The position numbers and the translations under genes are program-made. Shown piece after piece: positions 24,048-41,092 of a stretch of 64,000 nucleotides of DNA (the stretch's first letter is position 1; each line of letters begins with the position of its first letter). The stretch spans positions 81,637-145,636 of the forward strand of contig DATJGS010000037.1 in NCBI GenBank assembly GCA_035494735.1. Direction: 5' to 3'. The notes under the pieces were generated by a model, which was not told where the DNA came from, searched no databases, and worked only from the letters and a program-made list of their open reading frames with translations. The stretch comes from Candidatus Saccharimonadaceae bacterium (GTDB lineage: Bacteria > Eisenbacteria > RBG-16-71-46).

Positions 24048-25901
24048 TCAGCGCACGAGCACGGCCTTGCGCATGACGCTGTGTCCCGACTGGCTGAGCC
24101 GGATCACGTACACGCCGGCGCGCGAGATGGCACGCTCGTCGAGCCGCATGACGTGCCGCCCGGCACCGAGATCGCCGACCGCGCTCGACCACACGCGGCG
24201 CCCGGCCGCGTCCCACACGCTCAGTTCGGCCGGCGCGTCGCTCGGCAGCGAGAACGCGACGAGGCCGGAGCGCTCCATCGGATTCGGGCTCGGCGCGTCG
24301 AGCGCGAGTCCGAGGCCGCTCGGCACGTCGACCCACGCCTCGCCCGCGTACGCCGTCGCGCCGCGGTCGGCGATCGCGAGGCGATAGCCGTAGCGCGCGC
24401 CGGGCGTGACGTCGAGATCCTCGTACGTCACCGAGCCCGTGCCCGAAACCGCGCGGGCCGCGACCTCGGTCCACGCGCCGGACGGCGTGCGGCGCTCGAT
24501 CGAAACCATGCGCGACGCGAGCGTCGCGCCATACCATTCCAGCGCCACGCGCTCGGGAGTCGCGTCGGCCGAAACCAGCGACGCGAGCGTGGCCACGATG
24601 ACTTCGCAGCCGGCCGCGGGATCGGGCGCGGTCATGCCGCGGTTCACGAAGTCGCGGAGACCGTCCGCCTCGCAGCGCAGGTGAACGGTCGACGAGATGC
24701 GGTTGAAGCCCTGCGCCATGAAAATCGCCGAGAGCACGTCCTGCTCGCCGCCCGGGGCGAGCGTCACCGGCCCGCTCGACACGAGCATGCGGCGGTCCGA
24801 CGGGTTCGTGTCGAGCCAGCCGGTTCCCGCCTCGGGAGCGCCCGACACCATGAAGCGGGTGGGAAGCCCGTCCGTGGGATTGATGATCGGCGTGCCGTCC
24901 TGGTTGAGGCCGCGGATGTAGTTCTCGGTCTGGCTCGCCGTCGCCGGATCAGTCCCGTTGACGTAGCGGGTGAACGCGGTCATCGGCAGCGGCGGCCCGG
25001 AAGGCGGCTGGGCGCCGCGCAGCAGCTCGAAGCCGATGGCGGGCGGCGCCGAGCCGTACACGGCGTCGTCGTCGTCACCGTTGTACGCGTAGCCGAGCGA
25101 CCGCGTCGTGTCGCAACCGATGAGGTCGTCAACGTAGTCGCCGAGGTCGGGGTCCGACCACAGTCCGACGTACATCGAGTCGAGCGTGCTCGAGCCCCTG
25201 TTGAAGATGTGCCAACGCACGAACACCGTCTGTGCGAGCGCGCCGGGATGGTTGAACGCGAATACGGTCTCCTGCACCTCGACGCCGAGCTGCGCGGTCT
25301 GGCCCGCGTTGTTCGTATGGAACGTCGGGTCGCCGTCGTTGAACACCGCCCACAGCATCTGGTCGCCGGTGATGCTCAGCGAGCCATCTCCCAGCACGAC
25401 GACCGGCGGCGCGCCGTACGGCACGGCGCCCGCGTCGTAGTCGGCGAGCGCGGCGTCGCGCGTCGCGGCGTCGGAGTAGACACGCAGCAGCGAGTAGACA
25501 CGGTAGGCGGGATTCGCCGGGTTGTCGGGAAGGCCGAAGGGCATCGCTCCCGGCGCGAACTCGTCGCTGTACTCCGAGACCGCGACACGCGTCTGGCCGT
25601 CCACACGCGCGGCGAGCCAAAGGCCGGCCGTGTAGACCGCCGTCTTGCCGCTGCCCTTCGGGAACTCGAGCCCGGCGGTGCCGATCGGGCGATTGTTCGC
25701 GAGGCAGCCGGTGTTCGTCACGAACATGCTGATGTCGTTCACGTCGATCACGCCCGAATAATCGAAGTCCTGAGCGCGATTCGGCGCTGGGAGGCGCATG
25801 TCGGCCGAGAGCGCGCTCGGGCCGAACGTGGCCAGCAGCAGGGCGAATGAAATCGGGAACGCGGCGGCGAGCAGGCGGCGCGAAAACGAGGAGAGCGTCA
25901 T
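24048..25901 (-). CDS. Secreted hypothetical protein with a T9SS-type C-terminal sorting domain.
   Basis: Signal peptide, an Ig-like region, and a C-terminal SPNP...DAAGRRV...GVYVIRL tail. Confidence 0.75.
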   Translation of the reverse strand: MTLSSFSRRLLAAAFPISFALLLATFGPSALSADMRLPAPNRAQDFDYSGVIDVNDISMFVTNTGCLANNRPIGTAGLEFPKGSGKTAVYTAGLWLAARVDGQTRVAVSEYSDEFAPGAMPFGLPDNPANPAYRVYSLLRVYSDAATRDAALADYDAGAVPYGAPPVVVLGDGSLSITGDQMLWAVFNDGDPTFHTNNAGQTAQLGVEVQETVFAFNHPGALAQTVFVRWHIFNRGSSTLDSMYVGLWSDPDLGDYVDDLIGCDTTRSLGYAYNGDDDDAVYGSAPPAIGFELLRGAQPPSGPPLPMTAFTRYVNGTDPATASQTENYIRGLNQDGTPIINPTDGLPTRFMVSGAPEAGTGWLDTNPSDRRMLVSSGPVTLAPGGEQDVLSAIFMAQGFNRISSTVHLRCEADGLRDFVNRGMTAPDPAAGCEVIVATLASLVSADATPERVALEWYGATLASRMVSIERRTPSGAWTEVAARAVSGTGSVTYEDLDVTPGARYGYRLAIADRGATAYAGEAWVDVPSGLGLALDAPSPNPMERSGLVAFSLPSDAPAELSVWDAAGRRVWSSAVGDLGAGRHVMRLDERAISRAGVYVIRLSQSGHSVMRKAVLVR

Positions 25902-26085
25902 GGCGGCCTCGAAGGAGTCGGCGCGCTCGCGGCGCTGGGTGCGCGGCCTCACGCACGACTTGCCGGGAATGATAGCCCGACCCGTGCGCGAAGCGCTGCC
26001 TCAATCCTGCCCCGGACCGGCCAATCCTGGGCACGTCGGCCTGGACTCGCGCGGGCCGCGCGACCCCTTGCGAGGAGCGAACCCC

Positions 26086-30650: not shown

Positions 30651-32213
30651 TCACTCGATGCGCAGCAACCGCACCGTCGACGTCGCGCGCCCGGCGCTCA
30701 GCCGCACCAGGTAGACGCCGGCCGGGACGTGCGCCCCGCGCTCGTCGGCGCCGTCCCACGTCAGACGCTCTGCGCCCACCGCGAAGCGCACGTCGGCCAG
30801 CGTGCGCACCCGCCGCCCCTGCGTATCGAAGATCTCGACGCGCGCCGGCCCGGGCTCGCGCAGCGCGAACGAAACCTCCGTAGGCCCGGCGCTCGGATTC
30901 GGCGTGACGCGGAGCGCGAAGTTGCGCGGCGTCGGCTCGACCGCGTTCGGCGGCCCGGTGTAGCGAATGCGCCCGAACGCCCCGGTCGCGCCGCCGAAGC
31001 CGTCGTCGAACTGGCGCAGCCAGTACAGGCTGCCGTCGGGGCCGATCTGGTAGTCGCATTGGCTGTACATGCCGGTCATCCAGTTCACCGTATCGGGCTG
31101 TCCCGGCACATCCGCCGGCGCGACCCACGTGCCGCCGACCTTCTGCGCGCAGCGCAAGTAGCCGCCGTAGTAATCGCCGTAGAACAGAATCCCCTCGTAT
31201 TCATTCGGCCAGTTCGCGAGGCCGCCCACGGCGCCGCGGTGCACGCCGGCCGTGATGACGGCCTGGCTGCTGCCGTCGTGCGGGATGACGACGATCGGCG
31301 AGTCGAACGTCTGCGAGCCGCCGCCGCCCGGCTCCGGGCACTGCCCGACCGGCTCGACCGTCACGCCCTCGCGCCACGGCCAGCCCTCGTTGTCCCCGGC
31401 GGACACCTCGTCGACCTCCTCGAACGAGAAGTCGCCGGGGTCGGCGACGTACAGATTCTGGGTCACGCGATCGATCACGAATCGCCACGGATTGCGCAGG
31501 CCGAGCGCGAACACCAGGCGCGTCGTGCTGTCGCTCGACGCGAATGGATTGTCGGCGGGCGTGATCTGCGCGCGGAAGGCGCTGCCCGCGCCCGGCGGCA
31601 GGTTGCGCACGTCGAGCCGCAGGATCTTGCCCTTGAGTTGCGTCAGGTCCTGCGCCGCGCAACGGTCGAGGTCTTCCCCCACGGCCGCGTAGAGCATGCC
31701 ATCGAGCCCGAAACGCAGGCACCCGGCGTTGTGGCTGTCCGAGTTGTCCGGGATGTTGCCGATGATCACGTACGGCGAGCCGAGCACGAGGCTCTCTCCG
31801 AGCGGATTCGCGAGGTCGCCGCTGGCCGTGTAACGCACGATGATGATGAAGCCGCTCGTGCTCGTGTAGTCGAGATACACGTAGGGGCGCTGCGGCCACG
31901 CCGGATCGACCGCGACTCCCTGCAGCCCGCGCTCGCCGCTCGTCCCGGACGTGTTGAGCCCCGGCACGGTCAGCACCGGGTCTGTGGCAGCCACATGCGT
32001 GCCGACGATGAGTCGCACGCGCCCGGTCACCTGCTCCGTGAACAGCACGCGCCCGTCGGGCAGGAACGCGAAGCTGTTCGGCTGGGTGAGAGAGGGCACC
32101 AGCACTTCGGCTGCGAAGTTCGCGGGGACGACCGGATTGGTGGCGGCGGCGCGCGGGACGAGCACAAAGGCGAAGGCGGCCAGCAGCGGCGCCAGGCGGA
32201 GCGGACGCGTCAT
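30651..32213 (-). CDS. PQQ-dependent sugar dehydrogenase (glucose/sorbosone dehydrogenase family) with a T9SS-type C-terminal domain.
   Basis: GSDH beta-propeller motifs and a C-terminal TPNPSAGP...DTQGRRV...GVYLVRL tail. Confidence 0.8.
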   Translation of the reverse strand: MTRPLRLAPLLAAFAFVLVPRAAATNPVVPANFAAEVLVPSLTQPNSFAFLPDGRVLFTEQVTGRVRLIVGTHVAATDPVLTVPGLNTSGTSGERGLQGVAVDPAWPQRPYVYLDYTSTSGFIIIVRYTASGDLANPLGESLVLGSPYVIIGNIPDNSDSHNAGCLRFGLDGMLYAAVGEDLDRCAAQDLTQLKGKILRLDVRNLPPGAGSAFRAQITPADNPFASSDSTTRLVFALGLRNPWRFVIDRVTQNLYVADPGDFSFEEVDEVSAGDNEGWPWREGVTVEPVGQCPEPGGGGSQTFDSPIVVIPHDGSSQAVITAGVHRGAVGGLANWPNEYEGILFYGDYYGGYLRCAQKVGGTWVAPADVPGQPDTVNWMTGMYSQCDYQIGPDGSLYWLRQFDDGFGGATGAFGRIRYTGPPNAVEPTPRNFALRVTPNPSAGPTEVSFALREPGPARVEIFDTQGRRVRTLADVRFAVGAERLTWDGADERGAHVPAGVYLVRLSAGRATSTVRLLRIE

Positions 32214-32430: not shown

Positions 32431-33156
32431 TCAGCCGCCGGGGTTTTCGATGGCCTGCCGGAGCCGCTCGCGCGACGGGATGACGAAGCGTCCTTCGCCG
32501 GTCACGAGCAATCCCTCGCGCCCCCAGCGCGACAACACGCGAATCGCGGATTCGACGGTCGTGCCCACCAAGTCGGCCACTTCCTGGCGCGTCAGCGTGA
32601 GCGGGATCTCGACGCCCGCGGGGCCCTCGCGGCCCATGCGCTCGGCCAGCGTGAGGAACAGCTGCGCGATGCGCGTGTCCACGCGCTGGCCGCGCATGTC
32701 CTCGAGCTTGCGCGTCAGCGACACGACGAGCTTCGTGAGTTCGCGAATGATGGCGCGCGCGAACTCCGGATGACGGTCCAGCAGCTCGAAGTAGTCGCGG
32801 CGCGGCAGCACGACCAGCGACACGGGCTCGAGACACACGGCGCTCGCCGGGTACGGCATGTAGTTGTACACCGCGATCGCACCGACCGGCTCGCCCTCGC
32901 CGAACAGCTCGAGGATCACGTCGCCGGCGTCGGCGTGGCGCACGATCTTCACGCGCCCGCGCACGATGACGGTGAGCTGCTCGGCCGGGTCCCCGGCGCG
33001 CCACAGGAAATCGCCGCGCGCGTAGTCGCGGAGGCTCGCGAGACTCGCGATGCGTCCCTGATCGTCGGCCGTCAGCCCGCGGAACATCGGGATGGAGCGG
33101 ACCGCGGCCAGGACCCGTTCGGATCGAGCCTCGGACGTCGCGCGCGGTTCGCTCAT
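32431..33156 (-). CDS. Crp/Fnr-family transcriptional regulator.
   Basis: cNMP-binding-like fold plus a C-terminal HTH. Confidence 0.85.
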   Translation of the reverse strand: MSEPRATSEARSERVLAAVRSIPMFRGLTADDQGRIASLASLRDYARGDFLWRAGDPAEQLTVIVRGRVKIVRHADAGDVILELFGEGEPVGAIAVYNYMPYPASAVCLEPVSLVVLPRRDYFELLDRHPEFARAIIRELTKLVVSLTRKLEDMRGQRVDTRIAQLFLTLAERMGREGPAGVEIPLTLTRQEVADLVGTTVESAIRVLSRWGREGLLVTGEGRFVIPSRERLRQAIENPGG

Positions 33157-33170
33157 ATGATGCGGATCAT
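33157..33170. promoter_or_regulatory. Crp/Fnr-type palindrome ATGATGCGGATCAT.
   Basis: TGAT-N4-ATCA core resembles the TTGAT-N4-ATCAA FNR/Dnr consensus; sits right next to the regulator's start codon. Confidence 0.45.
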
Positions 33171-33255
33171 AGTCCAGTCGGGCCGCGTGCTCCCACCCCG
33201 CTCGACGGCAACGATCTAGGCCGGAATTCCCGACCCCGTGAATCCACGACGCGCG

Positions 33256-33269
33256 TGATGCCGATCATG
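33256..33269. promoter_or_regulatory. Second Crp/Fnr-type palindrome GTGATGCCGATCAT.
   Basis: Centred about 72 bp upstream of the hemerythrin ATG, consistent with class II (-41.5) activation. Confidence 0.5.
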
Positions 33270-33333
33270 CCGCGCGCGGCGCGAACGCACGATCCTCCTG
33301 ATGGACGCGGTACCGACTTTGGAGGAGCGGACG

Positions 33334-33903
33334 ATGCCCAATACGGTGTTCGACAATCTGCGCGACGACCACCTGCGCGTGCTCGGCGACATCTCGGCCG
33401 TGGAACGCGCCCTCGAGCCCGCGAGCGAAGGGCGGCGCGACGCGCGCGGCGGCCGGGCGGTCCGAGCCAAGGCGATTCGGCCGTCGGCGACGTGGGAACC
33501 GCTGCGCCGCCTCGTCGCGTTGCTCGAGCGCCAGTTCGAGACGCACATGGCGGCGGAGGACAAGGTGCTGTTCCCGTCGCTCGAGCGGGCGCTGCCCGAG
33601 ACGAGCGGTGCGCTCCGTGAGCTCGAGGACGAGCACCGCGAACTGCGCGGCATGCTCGCCTCGGTCGCCGGCCTGCTCCAGCGCCGCGCGTCGCAGGCCC
33701 GCGACGAACAACTCGTCGTGCAGGGCCGCGATCTCGTGGACCTGCTGCGCATTCATATTCGCAAGGAAGAAGTCGTCGTGTTCCGCGTGGCCGAGCGACT
33801 GCTCAGCCCCGCGGAGCTGATGGGCGTCGCGCGCCGTCGGACCGGAAACGCGATGACCGAACTCGGCTCCGGTCGCATCCCCTCGAGAGGATCGAACTCA
33901 TGA
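33334..33903 (+). CDS. Hemerythrin-like (HHE cation-binding) domain protein.
   Basis: Four His plus Glu/Asp in H...E spacing; GGAGGAG SD; ATGA overlap with the cytochrome c gene. Confidence 0.7.
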   Translation: MPNTVFDNLRDDHLRVLGDISAVERALEPASEGRRDARGGRAVRAKAIRPSATWEPLRRLVALLERQFETHMAAEDKVLFPSLERALPETSGALRELEDEHRELRGMLASVAGLLQRRASQARDEQLVVQGRDLVDLLRIHIRKEEVVVFRVAERLLSPAELMGVARRRTGNAMTELGSGRIPSRGSNS

Positions 33904-34391
33904 AGACGACTCGACTCGTGACGCTCGCCCTGGCCCTCGCGGCTGTGGCCGCGGTCGCGGGCTGCGGCGGCAAGACGGCGGATTCGGGCACCACCACGGG
34001 CACGACGAACGTGTCGGCCTCGGGCGCGGCCGGCGGCGACGCTCTGCCCGCCGGGCTCGACGAAGGCCCGCGCGCCGCGACGACGCCCATCGACGAGAGC
34101 AAGGTCGAAGCCGGCGAGAAGCTGTTCCAGACGCGCGGCTGTTCGGCCTGCCACGGATTCGGTAAGCGCATCTCCTGCCCCGATCTCGATGGCGTGACGT
34201 CGCGCCGCACCGCGAAGTGGATCGAGACGCAGATCCTGCACCCCGACGTCATGACCAAGCAGGACCCGACCGCTCGCCAGTTGTTCGCGCAGTACGCGCT
34301 GCAGATGCCCAAGCAGGGACTGACGCCGGCGGAGGCCGCCGCCGTGCTCGAGTTCCTGAAGCACAAGAACCACGAATCGGCCGAGAAGTAA
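33900..34391 (+). CDS. Lipoprotein c-type cytochrome.
   Basis: LAGC lipobox and a CSACHG heme-binding motif. Confidence 0.85.
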   Translation: MKTTRLVTLALALAAVAAVAGCGGKTADSGTTTGTTNVSASGAAGGDALPAGLDEGPRAATTPIDESKVEAGEKLFQTRGCSACHGFGKRISCPDLDGVTSRRTAKWIETQILHPDVMTKQDPTARQLFAQYALQMPKQGLTPAEAAAVLEFLKHKNHESAEK

Positions 34392-34410
34392 CCCGGAAAA
34401 GGAGCGCACC

Positions 34411-36324
34411 ATGAAACGCTGGATCACGATCGTCGCCGCCGTTGTCGCTGGAGCCGTGACGCTCGCCCACCTGCCGGGATGTGCCGGCACGCGCGGCGGC
34501 GGAGGCCCCGGCGCCGCGGCCGGCAAGGTGTACGTGAAACCGGGCGAGCACGACGCGTACTACGCGTTCCTGTCCGGCGGACACTCGGGGCAGATCTACG
34601 TGTACGGCATGCCGTCGTGCCGGCACATCACCACGATTCCCGTGTTCACGCCCGAGCCCGCCGTGGGCTACGGCGTGGACGAGGAGTCGAAGGCCATGCT
34701 CGGCGGACTCACCTGGGGCGACGCGCATCACCCGGGCATGAGCGAGACCGACGGCGATTACGACGGTCGCTGGCTGTTCATCAACGACATGCCGAATGCG
34801 CGCATCGCGCGCATCGACCTGTCGGACTTCAAGACCCACGAGATCTACGGGCCGATTCCGAACGTGTCCGCGGCGCACGCGTGCCCGTTCCCGACGCCGA
34901 ATACCGAGTACGTGTTCGCGGCGTCGCGCTTCTCGATCCCGATCCCCTACCCAACCGTGCGCCCGATGTCCGAGTACGCGCAGGCGTTCAACGGCGTGGT
35001 GGCGGGCATCAAGGTGGATCCCAAGAGCGGTCATATGTCGATGGGCTTCGAAGTGCTGATGCCGCCGTTCGACTGGGATCTGGCCGACGCCGGCAAGGGC
35101 CCGAGCAACGGCTGGGAATTCTTCACGTGCTACAACAGCGAAGAAGCCCATGACTCGCTCGAAGTGAAGGCCTCGCAGAACGAGATGGACTACATCGCCA
35201 TGGTCGACTGGCGCGCGGCGCAGAAGGCGGTCGACGAAGGCAAGGCGAAGATGATCGGCGGCGCGCCGGTGCTCGATCCCAAGGACGTGAAGGGCATCGT
35301 GTACCTGTTCCCGGTGCCGAAGAGCCCGCACGGCGTCGACGTCGATCCGAGCGGCCAGTACGTGTGCGCCTCGGGCAAGCTGCAGGCGGAAGTCTCCGTC
35401 TACAGCTTCGCGAAGCTGAGCGCGGCCATCGCCGCCGGCAAGTTCACGGACGAGAAGGGCGGCATCCCGGTGCTGCCCTACGAGAACGTGATCGAAGCGA
35501 AGGTGCCGGTGGGCCTGGGGCCGCTGCACACGCAATTCGACGGCAAGGGCTACGCGTACACGTCGCTGTTCCTCGACTCGCAGATCGCGAAGTGGAAGAT
35601 CGGCCCGCCCTGGAACGTCGTCGACAAGATCGACGTGTACTACTCGATCGGCCACCTCATGGCGTCCGAGGGTGACACGCGTCACCCGACCGGCGACTAC
35701 GTCGTGGCGCTCGACAAGCTGTCGAAGGACCGCTACCTGTCCGTCGGGCCGACGCATCCGGAGGCCGCGCAGCTCATCGACATCCGCGGACCGAAGATGG
35801 AGCTGCTGTACGACTTCCCCACGTACCTCGAGCCCCACTACGCGCAGATGATCCGCGCTGAGAAGCTCAAGCCGTTCACCGTGTACCCGCTCGACAAGAA
35901 CGACAAACCGTTCGCGACCAAGCGGGCCGAGGACGCGCGTGTCGAGCGCAAGGGACATCGCGTGGACGTGATGATGATCGCCGTGCGTTCGCACTTCTCG
36001 CCCGACAACATCCAGGTGACGCAGGGCGACACGGTCTACTTCCACGTCACGAACGTCGAGCAGGACGACGACATCGCGCACGGCTTCGGCATTCTGTTCT
36101 CGAGCAAGAACATGCAGATCGAGCCGGGCGAGACCAAGACCATGCGCTGGGTCGCGGACAAAGCCGGCGTCACGCCGTTCTACTGCTCGAACTTCTGCAG
36201 CGCGCTGCACCAGGAGATGCAGGGCTACATCGAAGCGTTGCCGGCGGGCGCCCACGTGGCCGCCGTGCAGCGTCCCGATCCGGCTCGCGTCGCCGAAGTC
36301 GCGGCGCTCATGAAGCACCCATAG
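34411..36324 (+). CDS. nosZ: Nitrous-oxide reductase, clade II (Sec/lipoprotein-type).
   Basis: Seven-bladed propeller region and a C-terminal CuA site HGF...FYCSNFCSALHQEMQG. LPGCAG lipobox and no twin-arginine. Confidence 0.92.
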   Translation: MKRWITIVAAVVAGAVTLAHLPGCAGTRGGGGPGAAAGKVYVKPGEHDAYYAFLSGGHSGQIYVYGMPSCRHITTIPVFTPEPAVGYGVDEESKAMLGGLTWGDAHHPGMSETDGDYDGRWLFINDMPNARIARIDLSDFKTHEIYGPIPNVSAAHACPFPTPNTEYVFAASRFSIPIPYPTVRPMSEYAQAFNGVVAGIKVDPKSGHMSMGFEVLMPPFDWDLADAGKGPSNGWEFFTCYNSEEAHDSLEVKASQNEMDYIAMVDWRAAQKAVDEGKAKMIGGAPVLDPKDVKGIVYLFPVPKSPHGVDVDPSGQYVCASGKLQAEVSVYSFAKLSAAIAAGKFTDEKGGIPVLPYENVIEAKVPVGLGPLHTQFDGKGYAYTSLFLDSQIAKWKIGPPWNVVDKIDVYYSIGHLMASEGDTRHPTGDYVVALDKLSKDRYLSVGPTHPEAAQLIDIRGPKMELLYDFPTYLEPHYAQMIRAEKLKPFTVYPLDKNDKPFATKRAEDARVERKGHRVDVMMIAVRSHFSPDNIQVTQGDTVYFHVTNVEQDDDIAHGFGILFSSKNMQIEPGETKTMRWVADKAGVTPFYCSNFCSALHQEMQGYIEALPAGAHVAAVQRPDPARVAEVAALMKHP

Positions 36325-36337
36325 TTCCCGCACGTCG

Positions 36338-36362
36338 GGGGCCGGCCCGAGCGGCCGGCCCC
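36338..36362 (+). other. Perfect 10-bp GC hairpin between nosZ and nosB.
   Basis: GGGGCCGGCC-cgagc-GGCCGGCCCC; no T-tract. Confidence 0.5.
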
Positions 36363-36376
36363 GACGGGAGGCAGTC

Positions 36377-36988
36377 GTGCACTATCTCGCCGATCGATTT
36401 CAACCGCGTGAGCGCCGCCTGATCTGGCTCGCCGCGCTCATCCTGGTTCCCGTCTTCTTCCTTCCGATCCTGCCGATCTGGGTCATGAAGCTGTGGGCCC
36501 CGCAGTATCGCGAAGGGCTGACGCTGACCATCTTCAGCAACACCATCAAGGGCAACATCGAGAGCATCAACATCCTCAATCACTACGTCGGCATGCACGC
36601 GATCTCGGCGAATGACTTCAGCGAATTCAACTACCTGCCTCAGGCGCTCAGCCTGTTCGGCGTGCTCGCTCTGCTCGCCGCGCTGCTCAACCGGCGCTGG
36701 CTGGCGATCGCGGGATGGCTCGCGTTCACCGCGTTCGCCGCGTACATGTTCAACGACTACGCGCACTGGCTGTGGCACTACGGGCACGACCTCGACCCGC
36801 GGGCGCCGATCAAGCTGCCGCTGTTCACGCCGCCGCTGATCGGCTTCAAGCAGATGGCGAACTTCCGGGTGTTGAGCGTGCCCGGCCCCGGCACCCTGCT
36901 CCTCGGCGTCGCCTGGCTGCTGGGTCCGCTCGCGATCTTCTTCGAACGGCGCGCCGCGCGTGACACGCGGAAGGCGCACGCGGCGTGA
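36377..36988 (+). CDS. nosB: NosB-like transmembrane protein of clade II nos clusters.
   Basis: Polytopic membrane protein immediately after nosZ; GTG start. Confidence 0.6.
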   Translation: MHYLADRFQPRERRLIWLAALILVPVFFLPILPIWVMKLWAPQYREGLTLTIFSNTIKGNIESINILNHYVGMHAISANDFSEFNYLPQALSLFGVLALLAALLNRRWLAIAGWLAFTAFAAYMFNDYAHWLWHYGHDLDPRAPIKLPLFTPPLIGFKQMANFRVLSVPGPGTLLLGVAWLLGPLAIFFERRAARDTRKAHAA

Positions 36989-38451
36989 ACGCCGTGGACC
37001 GCGTGACGGGCCTCGCGCCAGGCCGGACCCCGGCGCCGTGGCGCGCCGCGAGACGGGGCATCGCGGCCCTTCGCGCCGCCGCGCAAGGGTTGGGGCTGTC
37101 GGCCGCGCTGGCCCTGGCGCTCGTACCCGGCGCCGCGCATGCGCGGACGACGCGCGTTCCCGCCGTGCGTGGCGCCGCGCAGGCCGCGATCTCCGCGGCC
37201 GCGCCCGGCGACACGCTGATCCTGGAGGCGGGGGTCCATCCCGGGCCGCTTCTCGTCGATCGAGCGCTGACCGTGCGGGGGGAGCGCGGCGCGATCGTCG
37301 ATGGAGGCGGTTCCGGATCGACCCTGACCGTGACCGCGTCCGGGACGCGCGTCGAGGATCTCGCCGTCCGCCATTGCGGCACGCGCGTCATCACGGTCGA
37401 CGCCGGCGTGCGCGTGCTCGAGGCCGCGAACGTCACGTTGACGCGGCTCGCGCTCGGCGACGTGCTGTACGGCGTCGACGTCGAGCGCTCGCCGAACCTC
37501 GTCGTGCGCGACTGCGTCTTGCGCGGCCGCGTTGCGGGCGGGGGCGACGACGGCGAAGGCAACGGCCTCCACGTGTGGTACTCGACCGGCGCAACGCTCA
37601 CCGGCAACGACGTCAGCCACTTCGAGGACGCGGTCTACCTGTCGTTCGCGAACGACGCGCGCGCGATCGGCAATCGCCTGCACGACGACGGGCGCTACGG
37701 CTTCCACACGATGTACTGCCAGGGCAGCGTGCTCGAACGGAACGTGTTCACGAGGAACGCGGCGGGCTGCGCCATCATGTTCTCGAACCACCTGCGCGTC
37801 GCGCACAACCGCTTCGAGCACAACCGCGGCCCGCGCACGTACGGCTTGCTGCTGCGCGACTGCTCGGACGGCACGTTCGAGGGAAACGCGCTCGTCGACA
37901 ACACCATCGCCATGTTCCTCGACAACTCGAACCGCAATCGCGTGCGCGAGAACCTGCTGCTCGACAACGGCTGGGGCGTGCTGATGTTCTCGTCGTGCGC
38001 CGGAAACGAGTTCACGCGGAACGCGTTCCTGCACGACGACTACGCGGTCGCGATCGACATGAAGTACACCGACAATCGCTTCGACGATGGGCGCGTCGGC
38101 AACTACTGGAGCGATCACGCGCCGTACGACCTCGACGGCGACGGGCTGGGTGACGCGCCGTATTCGCCCGTCGGCACATTCGCGTTCCTGTCGAAGCAGT
38201 ACCCGGACCTGTCCGTGCTCGCGAAAAGCCCGGCGGTCGCCGCGCTGTCGGTGGCCGAGCAGGTGCTGCCCGCGATGCGCCCCAGCGAGGCCATGGATCG
38301 CCACCCGCTCGTGGCGCCGCCGCCGCTCGCGCGCCAGGGCCTCGTCGCCCTGCCGCGCGGCCGGCGCGCGACGCCGTGGGCCGCGGCGGCATTCGGCTCC
38401 ATCGCGCTCCTGTCGCTGGGCGGCCTCGGCGTCGGACGGTGGCGCGCATGA
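36985..38451 (+). CDS. nosD: Periplasmic right-handed beta-helix protein.
   Basis: Parallel beta-helix repeat pattern and position in the operon. Confidence 0.8.
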   Translation: MNAVDRVTGLAPGRTPAPWRAARRGIAALRAAAQGLGLSAALALALVPGAAHARTTRVPAVRGAAQAAISAAAPGDTLILEAGVHPGPLLVDRALTVRGERGAIVDGGGSGSTLTVTASGTRVEDLAVRHCGTRVITVDAGVRVLEAANVTLTRLALGDVLYGVDVERSPNLVVRDCVLRGRVAGGGDDGEGNGLHVWYSTGATLTGNDVSHFEDAVYLSFANDARAIGNRLHDDGRYGFHTMYCQGSVLERNVFTRNAAGCAIMFSNHLRVAHNRFEHNRGPRTYGLLLRDCSDGTFEGNALVDNTIAMFLDNSNRNRVRENLLLDNGWGVLMFSSCAGNEFTRNAFLHDDYAVAIDMKYTDNRFDDGRVGNYWSDHAPYDLDGDGLGDAPYSPVGTFAFLSKQYPDLSVLAKSPAVAALSVAEQVLPAMRPSEAMDRHPLVAPPPLARQGLVALPRGRRATPWAAAAFGSIALLSLGGLGVGRWRA

Positions 38452-39359
38452 TCCGCGTGTCGGGCCTGGTCAAGCGCTTCGGCGCGATCCGTGCGGTCGA
38501 CGATCTGAGCTTCGAAGTCGAAGCCGGCGAGACGTTCGCCGTCATCGGCCCGAACGGCGCCGGCAAGACCACGATGCTCAAGACGCTGCTCGGGCTGACG
38601 CGGCCGGACGCGGGGAGCATCGTTGTCGGGCCGCACCACCTGGCGCCGACGGATCCGCGCGCGCGCCACGACCTCGGCTACGTGCCGCAGCGCGTCACGT
38701 TCCCGCCCGGGCGAAGCGTCGAAGAGGTGTTGGGCTTTTTCGCGGCGCTGCGCGGGCTCGACGGCGGCGCCGCACGCGCGGCGTTGCGCCGCGTCGGGCT
38801 CGAGTCGCTGGCGGCGCGGCGCGCGAGCGAGCTGTCCGGCGGCTACACCCAGCGCCTGTCGCTGGCCCAGGCGCTGCTCGGCGAACCCGCGCTGCTCGTG
38901 CTGGACGAGCCGACCGCCAGTCTCGACCCCGAGGCCACGTGGGAGTTCCGCTCGTTGATCGAGCAGCAGCGTCGCGACGGCAAGACCATCCTCCTTTGCT
39001 CCCACCTGCTCGCCGAGGTCGAACGCGTCGCGGACCGCGTGCTCATCCTGGTCGAGGGCCGGCGCGCCGCGCTCGAGCGGCTGTCCGAGCTGAGGCTGCG
39101 CCAGATGCGCGCAACGCAGCTCGTGATCGAGATCCGTGAGGCGGAGCCGTCCGTCGCGGCCGTGGTCTCGGGCGCGGCGCCGGGCGCGGCGTGGCTCTCG
39201 CCCACGCGGCTCACCATCGACAATGTCGACGGTGTGGGCCTCGACGCGCTGGACGCGCTGCGTCGCGCGGGCGTCGCGGTGCGCTCGTTCGAGATCCAGC
39301 GGCCGACGCTCGAGGAGCTGTTCCTCCAGGTCGTGCGGCGCGGGAGGCACCATGCGTAG
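38448..39359 (+). CDS. nosF: ABC ATPase.
   Basis: GPNGAGKTT, LSGGYTQRLSLAQAL, LVLDEPT. Confidence 0.85.
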   Translation: MIRVSGLVKRFGAIRAVDDLSFEVEAGETFAVIGPNGAGKTTMLKTLLGLTRPDAGSIVVGPHHLAPTDPRARHDLGYVPQRVTFPPGRSVEEVLGFFAALRGLDGGAARAALRRVGLESLAARRASELSGGYTQRLSLAQALLGEPALLVLDEPTASLDPEATWEFRSLIEQQRRDGKTILLCSHLLAEVERVADRVLILVEGRRAALERLSELRLRQMRATQLVIEIREAEPSVAAVVSGAAPGAAWLSPTRLTIDNVDGVGLDALDALRRAGVAVRSFEIQRPTLEELFLQVVRRGRHHA

Positions 39360-39846
39360 GCCGTGGGCGCAGTCGTTGGTTCGAGGCGACGGTGGCCGGC
39401 CCGGCACCGGGCTGGCCGCGCCGTTCCTCGCCCGACTCGCGCTCACCGCACTGCTCCTTGTGGCGTTCGCAGGTTGCGCGCGGCGCGCGGGACCGCCGTC
39501 GATCGCCGGTGGCGTCGAGTGCACCCGCTGCAGCATGGAGACCAGCAGCCGGCACTTCGCGTGCGAGCGCGAGGTCTCGGGAAAATGGCTCGTGTACGAC
39601 GCGCTCGAGTGTTTGGCTCGCGACGCGGGACGCGAAGATCCGACGGCCATCTGGCTGCCGGACTACGACGAAGGAACGCTGCACCGTGCGGACTCCCTGT
39701 GGATCGTGCACGGCGACCTCGCGACGCCGATGGGCGGCGGACTCGTGGCGTTCATGAGCCGCGCCGCGGCGGACACGATCGCGGCTTCCTCTCACGGCGT
39801 GGTCGGGCGCTGGCGCGAGATCGCGCCCGGGATGGCCAGGCCATGA
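39352..39846 (+). CDS. nosL: Copper-chaperone lipoprotein NosL-like.
   Basis: Lipobox LVAFAGC; about 164 aa; position in the operon. Confidence 0.65.
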   Translation: MRRPWAQSLVRGDGGRPGTGLAAPFLARLALTALLLVAFAGCARRAGPPSIAGGVECTRCSMETSSRHFACEREVSGKWLVYDALECLARDAGREDPTAIWLPDYDEGTLHRADSLWIVHGDLATPMGGGLVAFMSRAAADTIAASSHGVVGRWREIAPGMARP

Positions 39847-40256
39847 CGCGGCCCTACGTCGTGCTGCTCGTCGTCGCGGTCGTCGCCGCCGTCGCGCTCG
39901 GCGTGATCGGCCGGCGCCGTCCGTCCCCGCGCGCGGCGGTCACGGCGCCGATCACGCTGCCCACGGTCGCGCTCGGCATCCAAGTGCGGGACGGCGCGGT
40001 CGAACCCGCGAACGCGGCCGTGCCCAAGGATCACCGCGTCGAACTGGACGTCGTCAATCGCGGGCGCGCCACGGTCTCGGTGCGCCTCGCCGGCTACGAG
40101 GACCACGTGGCGATCGATTCGCTGGCCGCGGGCGCGTCGCGCCACGTCACGTTCGACGCGGATCGCCCGGGCGAGGACTTCGCGTGGCTGCTGGACGGGC
40201 GTCCGGTCGGGCGGCTGTCCGTGACCGGCTCGCACCTCGCGGAGGGACGGCGATGA
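39843..40256 (+). CDS. Small membrane-anchored cupredoxin-like protein with no obvious Cu ligands, inserted between nosL and nosY.
   Basis: N-terminal TM helix and a roughly 100-aa beta-sandwich with a V.L.VVN.G.....F.A..PG.Y..W-type pattern; ATGA overlaps on both sides. Confidence 0.5.
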   Translation: MTRPYVVLLVVAVVAAVALGVIGRRRPSPRAAVTAPITLPTVALGIQVRDGAVEPANAAVPKDHRVELDVVNRGRATVSVRLAGYEDHVAIDSLAAGASRHVTFDADRPGEDFAWLLDGRPVGRLSVTGSHLAEGRR

Positions 40257-41092
40257 GCCTGCGCGCGAAGTTCGTGCGCGTGCGCGTGGTCGGTGCCGAG
40301 GAGTACCGGCGCGCGCTCGAGACGCGCTGGTTGTTCGGCTTCACGACGCTGTTCGCCGCGCTGGTGCTCGGCCTGTCCTACTTCGGCCTCGCGCAGGGCC
40401 ACGAAGTCGGCTTCCAGGGGTTCGCGCGCACGACGCTGAGCCTCATGAACCTCGTGCTGCTCGTCGTGCCGCTGTGCGCGCTCCTGCTCGGCGTCACGAG
40501 CCTGGCGGGTGGCGGCGACACGCTGCCGCTGCTGCTGGCCCAGCCGGTGTCGCGCGGCGAGGTGCTGGCCGGCAAGTTTGCCGGGCTGGCCGCCGCGCTC
40601 ACCGTCGCGCAGGGCCTCGGCTTCGGCGTGGGCGGACTCGTCGTCGCGCTGAACGCCGGCGCCGACCAATTGCCCGGGTTCGTCGCGCTCACCGTGCTGT
40701 CGATGGCGCTCGGCTGGCTGCACCTCGCGGTCGCGCTGGCCATCGGCGCGATATGGCCCGACCGGCTGCGCGCGATGTCGATCGCGCTGCTTCTCTGGCT
40801 CGTGCTGGTCGTCGCGTACGACCTGATCGTGCTCGGCGCGACGACGCTGCTGAGCGGCTTCCCGCTGCAAAGCGTTCTCGTACCCGCCCTGCTCCTCAAT
40901 CCCGTGGACCTGGCGCGCGTGCTCGTCACGATCGCGGTCGGTTCGGGGGCGCTGTTCGGGCCCACGTCGGCGGTGCTGGTCAAGACGTTCGGCGCCACGC
41001 GCGGCGTCGCGCTCGGCGTCTTCGTGCTCGTGGTCGAGACCTTGGTGCCGCTGGTGATCGCGGCCCACGTCTTCCGCCGCCGCGACTGGTAG
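40253..41092 (+). CDS. nosY: ABC-2 type permease.
   Basis: Six TM segments and position in the operon. Confidence 0.8.
   Translation: MSLRAKFVRVRVVGAEEYRRALETRWLFGFTTLFAALVLGLSYFGLAQGHEVGFQGFARTTLSLMNLVLLVVPLCALLLGVTSLAGGGDTLPLLLAQPVSRGEVLAGKFAGLAAALTVAQGLGFGVGGLVVALNAGADQLPGFVALTVLSMALGWLHLAVALAIGAIWPDRLRAMSIALLLWLVLVVAYDLIVLGATTLLSGFPLQSVLVPALLLNPVDLARVLVTIAVGSGALFGPTSAVLVKTFGATRGVALGVFVLVVETLVPLVIAAHVFRRRDW

What the first reader, a model, noticed from the sequence alone, without database searches (positions are those of the whole stretch)
32431..41092. Complete clade II nos cluster with a hemerythrin and a cytochrome c at its head and a divergent Crp/Fnr regulator
The ten genes from 33334 to 41092 are the hemerythrin, cytochrome c, nosZ, nosB, nosD, nosF, nosL, the cupredoxin-like gene, and nosY. 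NosZ carries a Sec lipoprotein leader (LPGC) and no twin-arginine, which is the clade II hallmark. This is a non-denitrifier-type N2O reducer with a likely O2/NO-sensing front end.
Basis: partly seen in the sequence, partly recalled or inferred. Interest (0 to 1): 0.55.

Follow-up and report, generated by a model that had tools for sequence, protein, structure and literature searches.

The report
Eisenbacteria-type clade II N2O-reductase operon
This is a complete gene set for turning the greenhouse gas N2O into N2, of the well-known "clade II" kind, in an uncultured soil bacterium of the Eisenbacteria group. Its core is ordinary, but it carries three conserved extras that I did not find described: a di-iron hemerythrin, a small copper-protein-like gene, and a regulator with two binding sites.

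Summary
The gene boundaries given (32431-41092) are correct. Nine co-oriented genes (33334-41092) lie next to a divergent Crp/Fnr gene: hemerythrin, cytochrome c lipoprotein (NosC), NosZ, NosB, NosD, NosF, NosL, a cupredoxin-like gene, and NosY.

NosZ is clade II by HMM score and by tree (200/200 bootstraps). It keeps all CuZ and CuA ligands, has no twin-arginine motif, and ends its leader in a conserved Cys (LPGC).

The window comes from a public MAG in which NosZ is already annotated. Flanking synteny places the organism in the Eisenbacteria, not under its NCBI label.

The core is an ordinary clade II nos cluster. New details:
- Two TGAY-N4-RTCA palindromes 98 bp apart lie upstream of the operon. 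They occur in 12/12 relatives with the regulator and in 0/6 without it.
- The hemerythrin keeps all six YtfE/RIC di-iron ligands but lacks the RIC N-domain.
- The cupredoxin-like protein has no Cys, belongs to a very small family, sits in every complete Eisenbacteria cluster even where nosL is missing, and occurs elsewhere fused to NosL.
- A hairpin conserved in structure separates nosZ from nosB.

O2/NO sensing and non-denitrifier status remain untested.

The parts
32431..33156 (-). Crp/Fnr-family transcription regulator (241 aa), divergent from the nos operon. It has no N-terminal Cys cluster and lacks the cAMP-contact residues.
   Evidence: PF00027, PF13545 and PF00325 all match. The best solved relatives are GlxR and Mtb Crp at 74 bits, with DNR at 46 and FNR at 44. 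It has a single Cys, at position 108. Orthologues of 68-81% identity occupy the same divergent position in 9 loci from the genome-collection scan, 12 counting the window, L081 and L083.
33158..33169 (.). Distal palindrome TGATGCGGATCA (TGAY-N4-RTCA), 2 nt upstream of the crp start codon and about 170 nt upstream of the hemerythrin ATG.
   Evidence: TGATNNNNATCA occurs 3 times in the window against 0.2 expected. The same box occurs 170-186 nt upstream of the hemerythrin start in 10 of 12 relatives.
33256..33267 (.). Proximal palindrome TGATGCCGATCA. Its centre lies 72 nt upstream of the ATG at 33334 and 98 bp from the distal box. It is the probable activator site of the nos promoter.
   Evidence: A proximal box is present in 12/12 distinct loci that carry the divergent crp gene. 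It is absent within 450 nt upstream of the operon in 6/6 loci without crp.
33334..33903 (+). Cytoplasmic hemerythrin-like (HHE) di-iron protein of 189 aa, the first gene of the operon. An alternative start lies at 33301.
   Evidence: PF01814 at E 2e-19. The family profile hits the di-iron domain of E. coli YtfE at E 1e-8, and H13, H71, E75, H101, H141 and E145 are invariant and align to the YtfE ligands. The model is a helical bundle with pLDDT 87.8, and its fold matches HHE proteins 3cax, 2p0n and 6q09. No TM segment or signal peptide was found.
33900..34391 (+). NosC: monohaem cytochrome c lipoprotein, the probable electron donor to NosZ.
   Evidence: PF00034 matches. It has a CSACH haem motif and the lipobox VAGC. 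Homologues sit directly upstream of nosZ in most of the 80 clade II loci. The nosC position is known from the literature (PMC3475470).
34411..36324 (+). NosZ: clade II (Sec-dependent) nitrous-oxide reductase of 637 aa, with a lipoprotein-type leader ending LPGC24.
   Evidence: TIGR04246 scores 860 bits against TIGR04244 at 456, both with a cutoff of 625. The tree separates clade I from the rest in 200/200 bootstraps. All 7 CuZ His ligands and the CuA ligands H, C592, C596, H600 and M603 align to P. stutzeri NosZ. The leader Cys is conserved in 80/82 relatives.
36334..36365 (+). GC-rich intercistronic hairpin (13-bp stem, no U tract) between the nosZ stop and the nosB ribosome-binding site.
   Evidence: Folding energy is -40.6 kcal/mol for the 71-nt context, z = -2.9. 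A 10-14 bp stem-loop sits at the same junction in 15 Eisenbacteria loci although the sequences differ.
36377..36988 (+). NosB: polytopic membrane protein specific to clade II clusters.
   Evidence: No Pfam or NCBIfam model matches. The 19-residue hydropathy scan finds three hydrophobic segments, and a fourth (about residues 108-126) is read by eye. The motifs LNHYVGM and YGHD are present (motifs taken from PMC9697520). Homologues lie directly downstream of nosZ in nearly all 80 loci.
36985..38451 (+). NosD: periplasmic beta-helix maturation protein with a C-terminal TM helix.
   Evidence: TIGR04247 at 362 bits. It matches P. stutzeri NosD (7o0y) at E 4e-39. A TM helix spans residues 466-484.
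38448..39359 (+). NosF: ABC ATPase.
   Evidence: PF00005 at E 6e-32. Its position is conserved across the related loci.
39352..39846 (+). NosL: copper-chaperone lipoprotein with lipobox FAGC42. An alternative start lies at 39376.
   Evidence: PF05573 scores 22 bits, just under the gathering cutoff of 24. The family profile hits P. stutzeri NosL (7osf) at E 3e-13. C57, C60, M62, D83, C87, P126 and M127 are invariant.
39843..40256 (+). Cup: membrane-tethered cupredoxin-fold protein of 137 aa with no Cys. It is an unnamed accessory gene typical of Eisenbacteria nos clusters.
   Evidence: The model has pLDDT 88.8, with a TM helix at residues 3-24 and a beta-sandwich. Fold matches are EfeO-Cup, Cupredoxin_1 (4hcf), FtrB, and the CuA domains of NosZ and ba3. 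It has no Cys. It is present in all complete Eisenbacteria clusters. The family has only 82 representatives at E<=1e-10 among 1.84 billion. Fusions with NosL exist.
40253..41092 (+). NosY: ABC-2 type permease.
   Evidence: PF12679 at E 4e-23. It has about 6 TM segments. Its position as the last gene is conserved.

Best explanation
The locus is a functional clade II nitrous-oxide respiration module in an Eisenbacteria-like soil bacterium.

Shown by sequence:
- NosZ has all its copper ligands. It is exported unfolded by Sec and probably lipid-anchored at Cys24.
- It is preceded by a lipoprotein monohaem cytochrome c (NosC).
- It is followed by NosB, the NosDFY ABC-type maturation machine and the copper chaperone NosL.

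Inferred from what is known of the families:
- Electrons flow from a quinol-oxidising complex encoded elsewhere, through NosC, to CuA and CuZ at the outer face of the membrane.
- NosL hands Cu(I) to NosD in the NosDFY complex, which builds CuZ.

Inferred from comparative evidence gathered here:
- The divergent Crp/Fnr-family protein binds two TGAY-N4-RTCA palindromes spaced 98 bp apart and positioned relative to the hemerythrin start. It thereby controls the operon. Its signal is neither cAMP nor an FNR-type Fe-S cluster.
- The first gene product is a cytoplasmic di-iron hemerythrin-like protein with the YtfE/RIC ligand set. It most likely binds or detoxifies NO or O2 under the conditions in which the operon is induced.
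- The Cys-less cupredoxin-like protein Cup works with NosL in copper handling, or in place of it. It does not transfer electrons.
- A hairpin after nosZ probably sets a higher level of hr-nosC-nosZ mRNA than of the accessory genes.
For: - NosZ identity and clade.
- Sec-type or lipoprotein leader: with clade I Tat controls.
- Accessory genes. NosB motifs and TM segments: with PMC9697520 and PMC3475470.
- Conserved architecture in 14 or more Eisenbacteria loci.
- Translational coupling through 4-nt overlaps.
- Regulator boxes: enriched, with conserved spacing and position, present only where crp is present, 12/12 against 0/6.
- Hemerythrin ligands and fold.
- Cup: fold. It is present in all complete clusters, while nosL is absent from 6 (L001, L004, L005, L047, L065, L081). 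NosL-Cup fusions occur in 7 representatives plus L044.
- Hairpin.
- Chromosomal context is syntenic with Eisenbacteria MAGs, so the cluster is not a recent island.
Against: - There is no expression or activity data of any kind. Everything is sequence inference from an uncultured organism.
- No quinol-dehydrogenase module (NosGH/C1C2, a bc complex or ACIII) is in the window, so the electron path is assumed.
- The NosZ lipobox has Pro at position -2 (LPGC), which is non-canonical, and no dedicated signal-peptide predictor could be run.
- The window's NosL scores just below the Pfam threshold.
- The window's Cup has Arg at the nearly invariant His136.
- Flanking charges leave Cup topology ambiguous (N side +2.9, C side +2.1).
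- No sigma-70-like promoter was found.
- The hairpin could be a true terminator that splits the cluster into two transcription units.
Confidence: 0.85

Rival explanations
1. The hemerythrin is the sensor of the system. It binds O2 or NO at its di-iron site and passes the signal to the Crp/Fnr protein or to NosC, which makes the head of the operon a gas-sensing front end.
For: - Hemerythrin and regulator co-occur: every one of the 12 loci with the divergent crp also has the hemerythrin, and loci lacking one mostly lack the other.
- The regulator has no recognisable sensing cofactor site of its own.
- Divergent Crp-hemerythrin pairs also occur about 8 kb from nosZ in Pyrinomonadaceae loci.
- In-frame hemerythrin-NosC fusions exist.
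Against: - The hemerythrin has no output or DNA-binding domain.
- Its closest solved relative by sequence is YtfE/RIC, a family linked to repair and NO handling rather than signalling.
- Being the first regulated gene fits a target of the regulator as well as a partner.
- L006 has the hemerythrin but neither the regulator nor the boxes.
- One of the two fusion lineages comes from long-read assemblies that show other frameshifts.
Confidence: 0.25
2. The cupredoxin-like protein is a blue-copper electron carrier that donates electrons to NosZ, as pseudoazurin or azurin do in clade I organisms.
For: It has a cupredoxin fold with matches to auracyanin, plastocyanin and CuA domains, and it is encoded inside the nos operon.
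Against: - There is no cysteine anywhere in the protein, and no His-Cys-His-Met ligand set.
- The best fold matches are the non-redox metal-binding Cupredoxin_1 group: EfeO-Cup, FtrB, and 4hcf/4hcg.
- It sits among the maturation genes and is fused to the chaperone NosL in other lineages.
- A dedicated cytochrome c donor is already present.
Confidence: 0.05
3. The nine genes form two transcription units rather than one operon. The first is hr-nosC-nosZ, ended by the hairpin. The second is nosB-D-F-L-cup-Y, with its own start or fed by read-through.
For: - A strong hairpin conserved in structure lies exactly at the nosZ/nosB junction. This is the only junction with a sizeable gap, 52 nt.
- From my own knowledge of Pseudomonas stutzeri, nosZ in clade I organisms is often transcribed separately from nosDFY.
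Against: - There is no U tract after the stem.
- The gap is too short for an obvious promoter, and the nosB ribosome-binding site directly abuts the stem.
- No promoter-like sites were found.
- Gene order and orientation are invariant.
Confidence: 0.35
4. The organism is a full or partial denitrifier, with nir and nor genes elsewhere in the genome, and not a non-denitrifying N2O scavenger.
For: A RIC-like di-iron protein and a Crp/Fnr regulator with FNR-like boxes are typical companions of NO-generating pathways (family knowledge). Only 64 kb of a contig at least 321 kb long was seen.
Against: About 40 of roughly 50 predicted proteins in the window were scanned with Pfam and none matched a nir, nor, nar or nap family. 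Many clade II carriers lack them (PMC9697520).
Confidence: 0.4

Closest known systems
Clade II ("atypical") nos clusters without NosGH, such as those of Bacillus azotoformans, Geobacillus, Anaeromyxobacter and Gemmatimonas (nosC-nosZ-nosB-nosD-nosF/Y-nosL)
   Same: - nosC, a cytochrome c lipoprotein, precedes nosZ.
- NosZ uses Sec-type export.
- The four-helix membrane protein NosB follows nosZ.
- NosD has a C-terminal TM helix.
- NosF, NosY and NosL are present, and nosR and nosX are absent (PMC3475470, PMC9697520).
   Different: - The order is D-F-L-(cup)-Y rather than D-Y-F or B-L-D-F-Y.
- A hemerythrin gene leads the operon.
- A cupredoxin-like gene lies between nosL and nosY.
- A dedicated divergent Crp/Fnr gene comes with two conserved boxes.
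- NosZ is only 50-62% identical to NosZ from other phyla.
Wolinella succinogenes nos cluster (nosZ-B-D-G-C1-C2-H-F-Y-L)
   Same: It has a clade II NosZ, and NosB is essential there (Hein et al. 2017, as cited in PMC9697520).
   Different: The window has no NosG/H/C1/C2 menaquinol-dehydrogenase module, and its NosZ has no C-terminal cytochrome c domain.
RIC / YtfE / ScdA di-iron proteins (including NorA and DnrN of denitrifiers, from my own knowledge)
   Same: The protein is a four-helix-bundle hemerythrin-like domain with the same six ligands, H, H-x3-E, H, H-x3-E. It is cytoplasmic and encoded alongside N-oxide respiration genes under a Crp/Fnr-type regulator.
   Different: It lacks the N-terminal ScdA_N domain. 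TIGR03652 scores only 21.8 bits against a cutoff of 204.7. Its position as the first gene of a nos operon was not found in the papers searched.
FNR / DNR / NnrR / FixK regulators and their TTGAT-N4-ATCAA boxes
   Same: It has the same two-domain architecture. The recognition helix has Val-Glu-x3-Arg, as in FNR rather than CRP. The palindromic target has a TGA-N6-TCA core in the divergent promoter region.
   Different: - It has no FNR Cys cluster.
- Sequence is slightly closer to actinobacterial GlxR/Crp than to DNR or FNR.
- The half-site is (A/C/G)TGAY rather than TTGAT.
- Two sites lie 98 bp apart.
Cupredoxin_1 family (PF13473): the EfeO N-terminal domain, Brucella FtrB, and B. anthracis 4hcf/4hcg
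   Same: These are the best fold matches. There is a weak PF13473 hit. They are extracytoplasmic, Cys-less, metal-binding cupredoxin folds that are not electron carriers.
   Different: Cup has different conserved residues: GYE, DRPGxxF and G-x-H-x-x-E-E at the C-terminus. Its context is nos rather than iron uptake, it has an N-terminal TM tether, and it occurs fused to NosL.
NosB-NosL fusion proteins of Flavobacterium and Dyadobacter
   Same: They show that NosL is recruited into fusions with other membrane-bound nos accessory proteins (PMC9697520).
   Different: Here the fusion partner found in other lineages is the cupredoxin-like domain, at the C-terminus of NosL.

Membership tests
Clade II (Sec-dependent) NosZ, TIGR04246 | Scores above the curated cutoff of the clade II model and below that of the Tat-dependent clade I model | tested here: met
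   TIGR04246 scores 860.4 bits (cutoff 625). TIGR04244 scores 456.4 bits (cutoff 625).
Clade II (Sec-dependent) NosZ, TIGR04246 | Groups with clade II and not clade I in a NosZ tree | tested here: met
   In an NJ tree of 29 sequences over 599 columns, the split between clade I and the rest has 200/200 bootstraps. Identity to clade I is 37-41%.
Clade II (Sec-dependent) NosZ, TIGR04246 | Signal peptide without a twin-arginine motif | tested here: met
   The leader MKRWITIV...HLPGC has no RR. Only 1 of 82 relatives has a Tat-like motif, while all five clade I controls have RR. No SignalP or TatP run was possible.
Clade II (Sec-dependent) NosZ, TIGR04246 | Seven CuZ histidines and the CuA ligand set (H, C-x3-C-x3-H-x2-M) | tested here: met
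   All align to P. stutzeri NosZ: HH in GDAHHP, then AAH, SPH, PLH, IGH, EPH, plus AHG and CSNFCSALHQEM.
Clade II (Sec-dependent) NosZ, TIGR04246 | Catalyses reduction of N2O to N2 | not testable with these tools
   This needs an enzyme or culture assay.
Clade II nos gene cluster | nosB lies next to nosZ and encodes a polytopic membrane protein with 4 (or 6) TM helices and the LNHYIGM and YGHN motifs | tested here: met
   The gene lies 52 nt downstream of nosZ. The hydropathy scan gives three segments and a fourth is read by eye. LNHYVGM and YGHD are present. Homologues hold the same position in nearly all 80 loci. The criteria come from 10.1101/2024.05.17.594689 and PMC9697520.
Clade II nos gene cluster | A cytochrome c gene (nosC) lies directly upstream of nosZ | tested here: met
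   PF00034 monohaem lipoprotein, 19 nt upstream of nosZ. The position is conserved and known from PMC3475470.
Clade II nos gene cluster | NosD, NosF, NosY and NosL maturation genes are present | tested here: met
   NosL is supported by the family profile (E 3e-13 to 7osf), while the single sequence scores just under the Pfam cutoff.
Clade II nos gene cluster | nosR and nosX are absent | tested here: met
   Neither is in the cluster nor among the roughly 40 window proteins scanned. The rest of the genome was not seen.
RIC / YtfE / ScdA iron-sulfur repair di-iron proteins | Di-iron ligand set H, H-x3-E, H, H-x3-E in a hemerythrin-like domain | tested here: met
   Invariant H13, H71, E75, H101, H141 and E145 align to the YtfE ligands.
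RIC / YtfE / ScdA iron-sulfur repair di-iron proteins | N-terminal ScdA_N domain and a full-length equivalog score | tested here: not met
   Only PF01814 is found. TIGR03652 scores 21.8 bits against a cutoff of 204.7. The protein is not filed as RIC. It is a stand-alone HHE protein with a RIC-like site.
FNR-type oxygen sensors | N-terminal cluster of Cys residues that ligate a [4Fe-4S] cluster | tested here: not met
   The protein has a single Cys, C108, and none in the N-terminal 100 residues.
cAMP-binding CRP | The Glu and Arg-Ser/Thr that contact cAMP in the nucleotide pocket | tested here: not met
   Where GlxR has GEL...PRTSSA, the window has GAI...PYPASA (alignment).
Crp/Fnr superfamily | A cNMP-binding-like sensor domain plus a C-terminal HTH_Crp_2 domain | tested here: met
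   PF00027 at E 8e-19 and PF13545 at E 2.5e-15.
Type-1 (blue) copper cupredoxins | Cupredoxin beta-sandwich fold | tested here: met
   Model pLDDT is 88.8. Foldseek finds 171 PDB matches at E<=1e-3, and the 50 best listed are all cupredoxin-fold proteins or domains.
Type-1 (blue) copper cupredoxins | His-Cys-His-Met copper ligands | tested here: not met
   There is no Cys in the protein, and no His-Cys-His-Met ligand set is conserved across the family alignments.
NosL copper chaperone | Lipoprotein with the NosL fold or sequence family and conserved Cys/Met metal ligands | tested here: met
   Lipobox FAGC42. C57, C60 and M62 (C-x2-C-x-M), C87 and M127 are invariant. The profile hits P. stutzeri NosL (7osf) at E 3e-13. 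PF05573 scores 22 bits against a gathering cutoff of 24 for the single sequence.

The most novel reading that the evidence does not exclude
The small Cys-less cupredoxin-like protein (Cup, 39843-40256) is a previously unrecognised nos maturation factor. It would be a membrane-tethered metal-handling domain that partners NosL, since the two are fused in several lineages. It may replace NosL in Eisenbacteria whose clusters lack nosL.

Together with a RIC-like hemerythrin that leads the operon and a dedicated Crp/Fnr regulator acting at two fixed palindromes, this would define an Eisenbacteria-type nos system. Its copper delivery and gas-responsive control would differ from both clade I (NosR/NosX) and Wolinella-type clade II systems.
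Probability: 0.4. Interest if true: 0.55.

Novelty: new variant of a known kind. Interest (0 to 1): 0.4.

Why it matters
Clade II NosZ organisms are regarded as the main biological sink for N2O in soils, yet almost all mechanistic knowledge comes from a few cultured Proteobacteria, Campylobacterota and Bacteroidota.

This locus shows that an uncultured, widespread soil lineage (Eisenbacteria) carries a conserved, chromosomally stable nos system of its own. I found no paper in the held library that links this lineage to N2O reduction.

The extras give concrete handles for experiment:
- a predicted regulator-operator pair, for asking what switches N2O reduction on in such organisms;
- a candidate extra copper-handling factor that could matter for heterologous expression of clade II NosZ;
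- a di-iron protein that may explain tolerance to O2 or NO.

None of this changes the basic picture of N2O reduction, so the value is incremental.

Tried and rejected
- Pairwise BLAST of Cup against NosZ found nothing. Only the family profile detects the NosZ CuA domain, at E about 1e-6 in a local database. An unrestricted jackhmmer run drifted into all NosZ sequences and was not used as evidence of close kinship.
- A single-sequence search of NosL against the PDB gave only noise. The family profile was needed.
- The sigma-70 promoter and intrinsic-terminator scan gave nothing above chance.
- A possible Tat motif in NosD (RRGIAAL) is not conserved in relatives and was dropped.
- The Crp-hemerythrin pairs in Pyrinomonadaceae loci are separated from nosZ by unrelated genes, so they were not used as evidence of a shared regulon.
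- Rfam and tRNA scans of the window were empty.
- The nosY-trxB spacer shows no significant structure.
- Literature searches for Eisenbacteria with nosZ or N2O, for hemerythrin with clade II nosZ, and for cupredoxin-like genes in nos clusters returned no relevant description.
- The afdb50 library was unavailable.
- The first tree script timed out.
- The NCBI organism label, Candidatus Saccharimonadaceae, was rejected as the source taxon on composition and synteny.

Full report
**1. What is in the sequence**

The window has about 70% G+C, so many spurious ORFs exist. Third-position G+C singles out one coding frame per stretch. Between 32431 and 41092 this gives ten genes.

One gene lies on the minus strand: a 241-aa Crp/Fnr-family regulator at 32431-33156. 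Nine lie on the plus strand:
- hemerythrin (33334-33903);
- cytochrome c (33900-34391);
- NosZ (34411-36324);
- NosB (36377-36988);
- NosD (36985-38451);
- NosF (38448-39359);
- NosL (39352-39846);
- a 137-aa cupredoxin-like protein that I call Cup (39843-40256);
- NosY (40253-41092).

Pfam and NCBIfam confirm the regulator, hemerythrin, cytochrome c, NosZ, NosD, the ABC ATPase and the ABC-2 permease. They give sub-threshold hits for NosL and Cup and nothing for NosB.

That includes the hemerythrin start at 33334, which has a GGAGGAG ribosome-binding site and matches the N-termini of homologues. The only slip is the count: nine genes lie in 33334-41092, and the regulator is the tenth.

Five junctions are 4-nt start/stop overlaps, one is an 8-nt overlap, and the others are gaps of 19 and 52 nt. 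The next gene is a thioredoxin reductase that starts 146 nt after nosY and has its own ribosome-binding site.

**2. NosZ is clade II**

The Sec-dependent NosZ model TIGR04246 scores 860 bits. The Tat-dependent model scores 456 bits, below its cutoff of 625.

I fetched five clade I NosZ genes from plasmid records. I built a neighbour-joining tree with these and 23 clade II sequences from related loci. The window sequence falls inside clade II.

All seven CuZ histidines and the CuA ligands align to the P. stutzeri enzyme.

The leader (MKRWITIVAAVVAGAVTLAHLPGC) has no twin arginine, whereas all five clade I controls show one. The Cys at the end of the hydrophobic run is present in 80 of 82 clade II relatives examined, and 57 of them have a lipobox-like tetrad. 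A lipid-anchored NosZ is therefore likely, and it is general in this part of clade II. The Pro at position -2 is non-canonical, and I could not run a dedicated predictor.

**3. The accessory genes**

- NosB has hydrophobic segments consistent with four TM helices: three from the hydropathy scan and one read by eye. It carries the two published NosB motifs, here as LNHYVGM and YGHD (motifs from PMC9697520). It sits where NosB sits in nearly all 80 related loci.
- NosD matches the solved P. stutzeri NosD at E 4e-39. It has the C-terminal TM helix noted for clade II NosD (PMC3475470).
- NosL is a lipoprotein. A profile of its family hits the solved P. stutzeri NosL at E 3e-13, and C-x2-C-x-M plus further Cys and Met residues are invariant.
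- The cytochrome c is a monohaem lipoprotein in the known nosC position (PMC3475470).
- Neither nosR, nosX nor a NosGH/C1C2 module is present.

The cluster is therefore complete in the sense of the Anaeromyxobacter, Gemmatimonas and Bacillus type of clade II cluster.

**4. Source organism**

The closest NosZ sequences, at 73-84% identity, are from Candidatus Eisenbacteria MAGs. The next, at about 60%, are from Acidobacteriota and others.

The window's proteins are exact matches to NCBI entries HTK32133-HTK32141 from a TPA MAG labelled "Candidatus Saccharimonadaceae bacterium", on a 321-kb contig. There NosZ is already annotated as a Sec-dependent nitrous-oxide reductase, and NosB and Cup are annotated as hypothetical. 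An identical 13-kb contig exists in JGI metagenome 3300045391.

The label conflicts with the composition and with the flanking genes. The upstream HlyD/ABC/MacB/MacB/GSDH genes and the downstream TrxB/ETF-QO genes are 66-85% identical to, and syntenic with, Eisenbacteria loci L008 and L011. The organism is therefore Eisenbacteria-like, and the cluster sits in a conserved chromosomal neighbourhood.

I found no paper in the held library that links Eisenbacteria to nosZ or N2O reduction.

**5. Conserved architecture**

A tblastn map of the ten proteins onto 80 loci gave three patterns:
- Eisenbacteria share (crp)|hr-nosC-Z-B-D-F-(L)-cup-Y.
- Acidobacteriota, Myxococcota and others have Z-B-D-F-L-Y.
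- Gemmatimonadota and Bacteroidota have Z-B-L-D-F-Y.

The hemerythrin and the regulator come and go together. Twelve distinct loci have both, L006 has only the hemerythrin, and L004, L017, L032 and L047 have neither.

**6. Regulator and operator**

The regulator has the Crp/Fnr two-domain architecture. It has a single Cys and therefore no FNR cluster. It lacks the Glu and Arg-Ser that hold cAMP in CRP and GlxR. Its recognition helix (TVESAIR) is of the FNR type, with Val instead of the CRP Arg.

The 177-nt crp-hr spacer holds two palindromes, TGATGCGGATCA (33158) and TGATGCCGATCA (33256). The pattern TGATNNNNATCA occurs three times in 64 kb against 0.2 expected.

Relatives carry TGAY-N4-RTCA boxes at the same places. 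The proximal box lies 72-90 nt upstream of the hemerythrin start and the distal box 170-186 nt upstream. The two are 96-99 bp apart in 10 of 12 loci, whereas their distance to the crp start varies from 1 to 112 nt.

Loci without the regulator have no such box within 450 nt of the operon. This is good comparative evidence for a regulator-operator pair that controls the nos promoter. What the regulator senses is unknown.

**7. The hemerythrin**

It has no signal peptide or TM segment, so it is cytoplasmic. A profile of 47 homologues hits the di-iron domain of E. coli YtfE (RIC) at E 1e-8. The invariant H13, H71, E75, H101, H141 and E145 align to the YtfE iron ligands.

The AlphaFold model (pLDDT 87.8) is a helical bundle whose best fold matches are HHE-domain proteins. 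It lacks the ScdA_N domain and scores far below the RIC equivalog cutoff. I therefore file it as a stand-alone HHE protein with a RIC-like site.

By analogy with RIC, NorA and DnrN (my own knowledge), the most likely role is binding or detoxifying NO or O2, or repairing damaged iron centres, when N-oxide respiration is induced. A sensor role cannot be excluded.

In two lineages the hemerythrin and NosC are read as one ORF that keeps the NosC lipobox. One of these lineages comes from long-read assemblies with other frameshifts, so I treat this only as a hint.

**8. The cupredoxin-like protein**

The model (pLDDT 88.8) shows an N-terminal TM helix and a beta-sandwich. Foldseek returns cupredoxin-fold proteins throughout the listed matches, led by the EfeO cupredoxin domain, B. 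anthracis Cupredoxin_1 (with Cu or Zn bound) and Brucella FtrB. The CuA domains of NosZ and ba3 oxidase also match. The family profile also detects the NosZ CuA domain weakly.

The protein has no cysteine, so it is not a blue-copper or CuA electron carrier. Across the family the invariant residues are G84-Y85-(E), D-R-P109-G110-x-x-F113 and a C-terminal G129-S-H131-L-x-E-G-H. The window copy has Arg at the last His.

The family is very small. There are 82 representatives at E<=1e-10 among 1.84 billion cluster representatives, and every member that carries a source name is called hypothetical.

It is present in all complete Eisenbacteria clusters. That includes six with no nosL between nosF and nosY: L001, L004, L005, L047, L065 and L081.

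In other lineages the same domain is the C-terminal half of proteins whose N-terminal half is a Pfam-significant NosL. These are L044 plus seven representatives, and they keep G-Y-E, P-G-x-x-F and G-x-H.

I infer a copper- or metal-handling role alongside NosL. Flanking charges leave the topology ambiguous. The fusions to lipoprotein NosL argue for the periplasmic side.

**9. The hairpin after nosZ**

The 52-nt nosZ-nosB spacer is almost entirely a 13-bp G+C stem with a 5-nt loop (36334-36365). Folding energy is -40.6 kcal/mol, z = -2.9. Fifteen Eisenbacteria loci have a 10-14 bp stem-loop at this junction although the sequences differ.

No U tract follows, and the nosB ribosome-binding site abuts the stem. 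The most likely effect is differential mRNA stability or partial termination, which would give more hr-nosC-nosZ message than accessory-gene message.

**10. Verdict**

The locus is a new member of a known kind of system. It has lineage-specific variations (regulator with operators, hemerythrin, Cup, hairpin) that are conserved and that I did not find described.

O2/NO sensing is unproven, and the non-denitrifier status cannot be determined from this window. About 40 of roughly 50 predicted proteins in the window were scanned with Pfam, and none matched a nir, nor, nar or nap family.

Noticed in passing
whole window; NCBI proteins HTK32133-HTK32141: The source MAG is labelled "Candidatus Saccharimonadaceae bacterium" at NCBI. 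The window has about 70% G+C and lies on a 321-kb contig. Both its nos genes and its flanking housekeeping genes are closest to, and syntenic with, Candidatus Eisenbacteria MAGs. The taxonomic label looks wrong.
   Followed up: partly
window 36334-36365: A strong G+C hairpin with no U tract lies between nosZ and nosB. An equivalent stem-loop is present at the same junction in 15 related loci although the sequences differ.
   Followed up: yes
L081/L082 9001-9993; L083 4167-5156: In two other Eisenbacteria lineages the hemerythrin and the NosC cytochrome c are a single in-frame ORF of 329-330 aa that keeps the internal NosC lipobox. L081 and L082 come from long-read assemblies with other frameshifts (NosZ split in L082, NosB-NosD joined in L081). 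L083 comes from short reads.
   Followed up: partly
L044 8805-9626; proteins P0338, P0350, P0361, P0362, P0367, P0387, P0347: These proteins combine an N-terminal NosL domain (Pfam-significant) with a C-terminal domain homologous to the window's cupredoxin-like protein. I did not find this fusion architecture described.
   Followed up: yes
L035, L038, L039 (Pyrinomonadaceae), about 8 kb upstream of nosZ; L024: Divergent Crp/Fnr-hemerythrin gene pairs, some with a second hemerythrin, also occur near nosZ in Acidobacteriota but are separated from it by unrelated genes. The regulator-hemerythrin pair may be a module in its own right.
   Followed up: partly
window 2936-5533, 30651-32213, 52196-55300: Several large secreted proteins lie in the window: a BNR/sortilin-like protein, a glucose/sorbosone dehydrogenase-like protein, and a 1034-aa repeat protein. 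The first two end in a FlgD_ig-like C-terminal domain. The third was not scanned. This may be a lineage-specific sorting or anchoring tag.
   Followed up: no
window 39843-40256, residue 136: The window's Cup copy ends GSHLAEGRR, whereas more than 90% of family members end GSHLxEGHR. The nearly invariant last His is Arg here.
   Followed up: no
window 12241-14202 (-), 24048-25952 (-), 17452-18201 (+): Three sizeable ORFs with clear coding signal (GC3 above 0.9) have no Pfam match at E<=1e-4. Positions 8-14 kb have unusually high G+C (0.75-0.77) and AT skew (+0.2 to +0.25).
   Followed up: no
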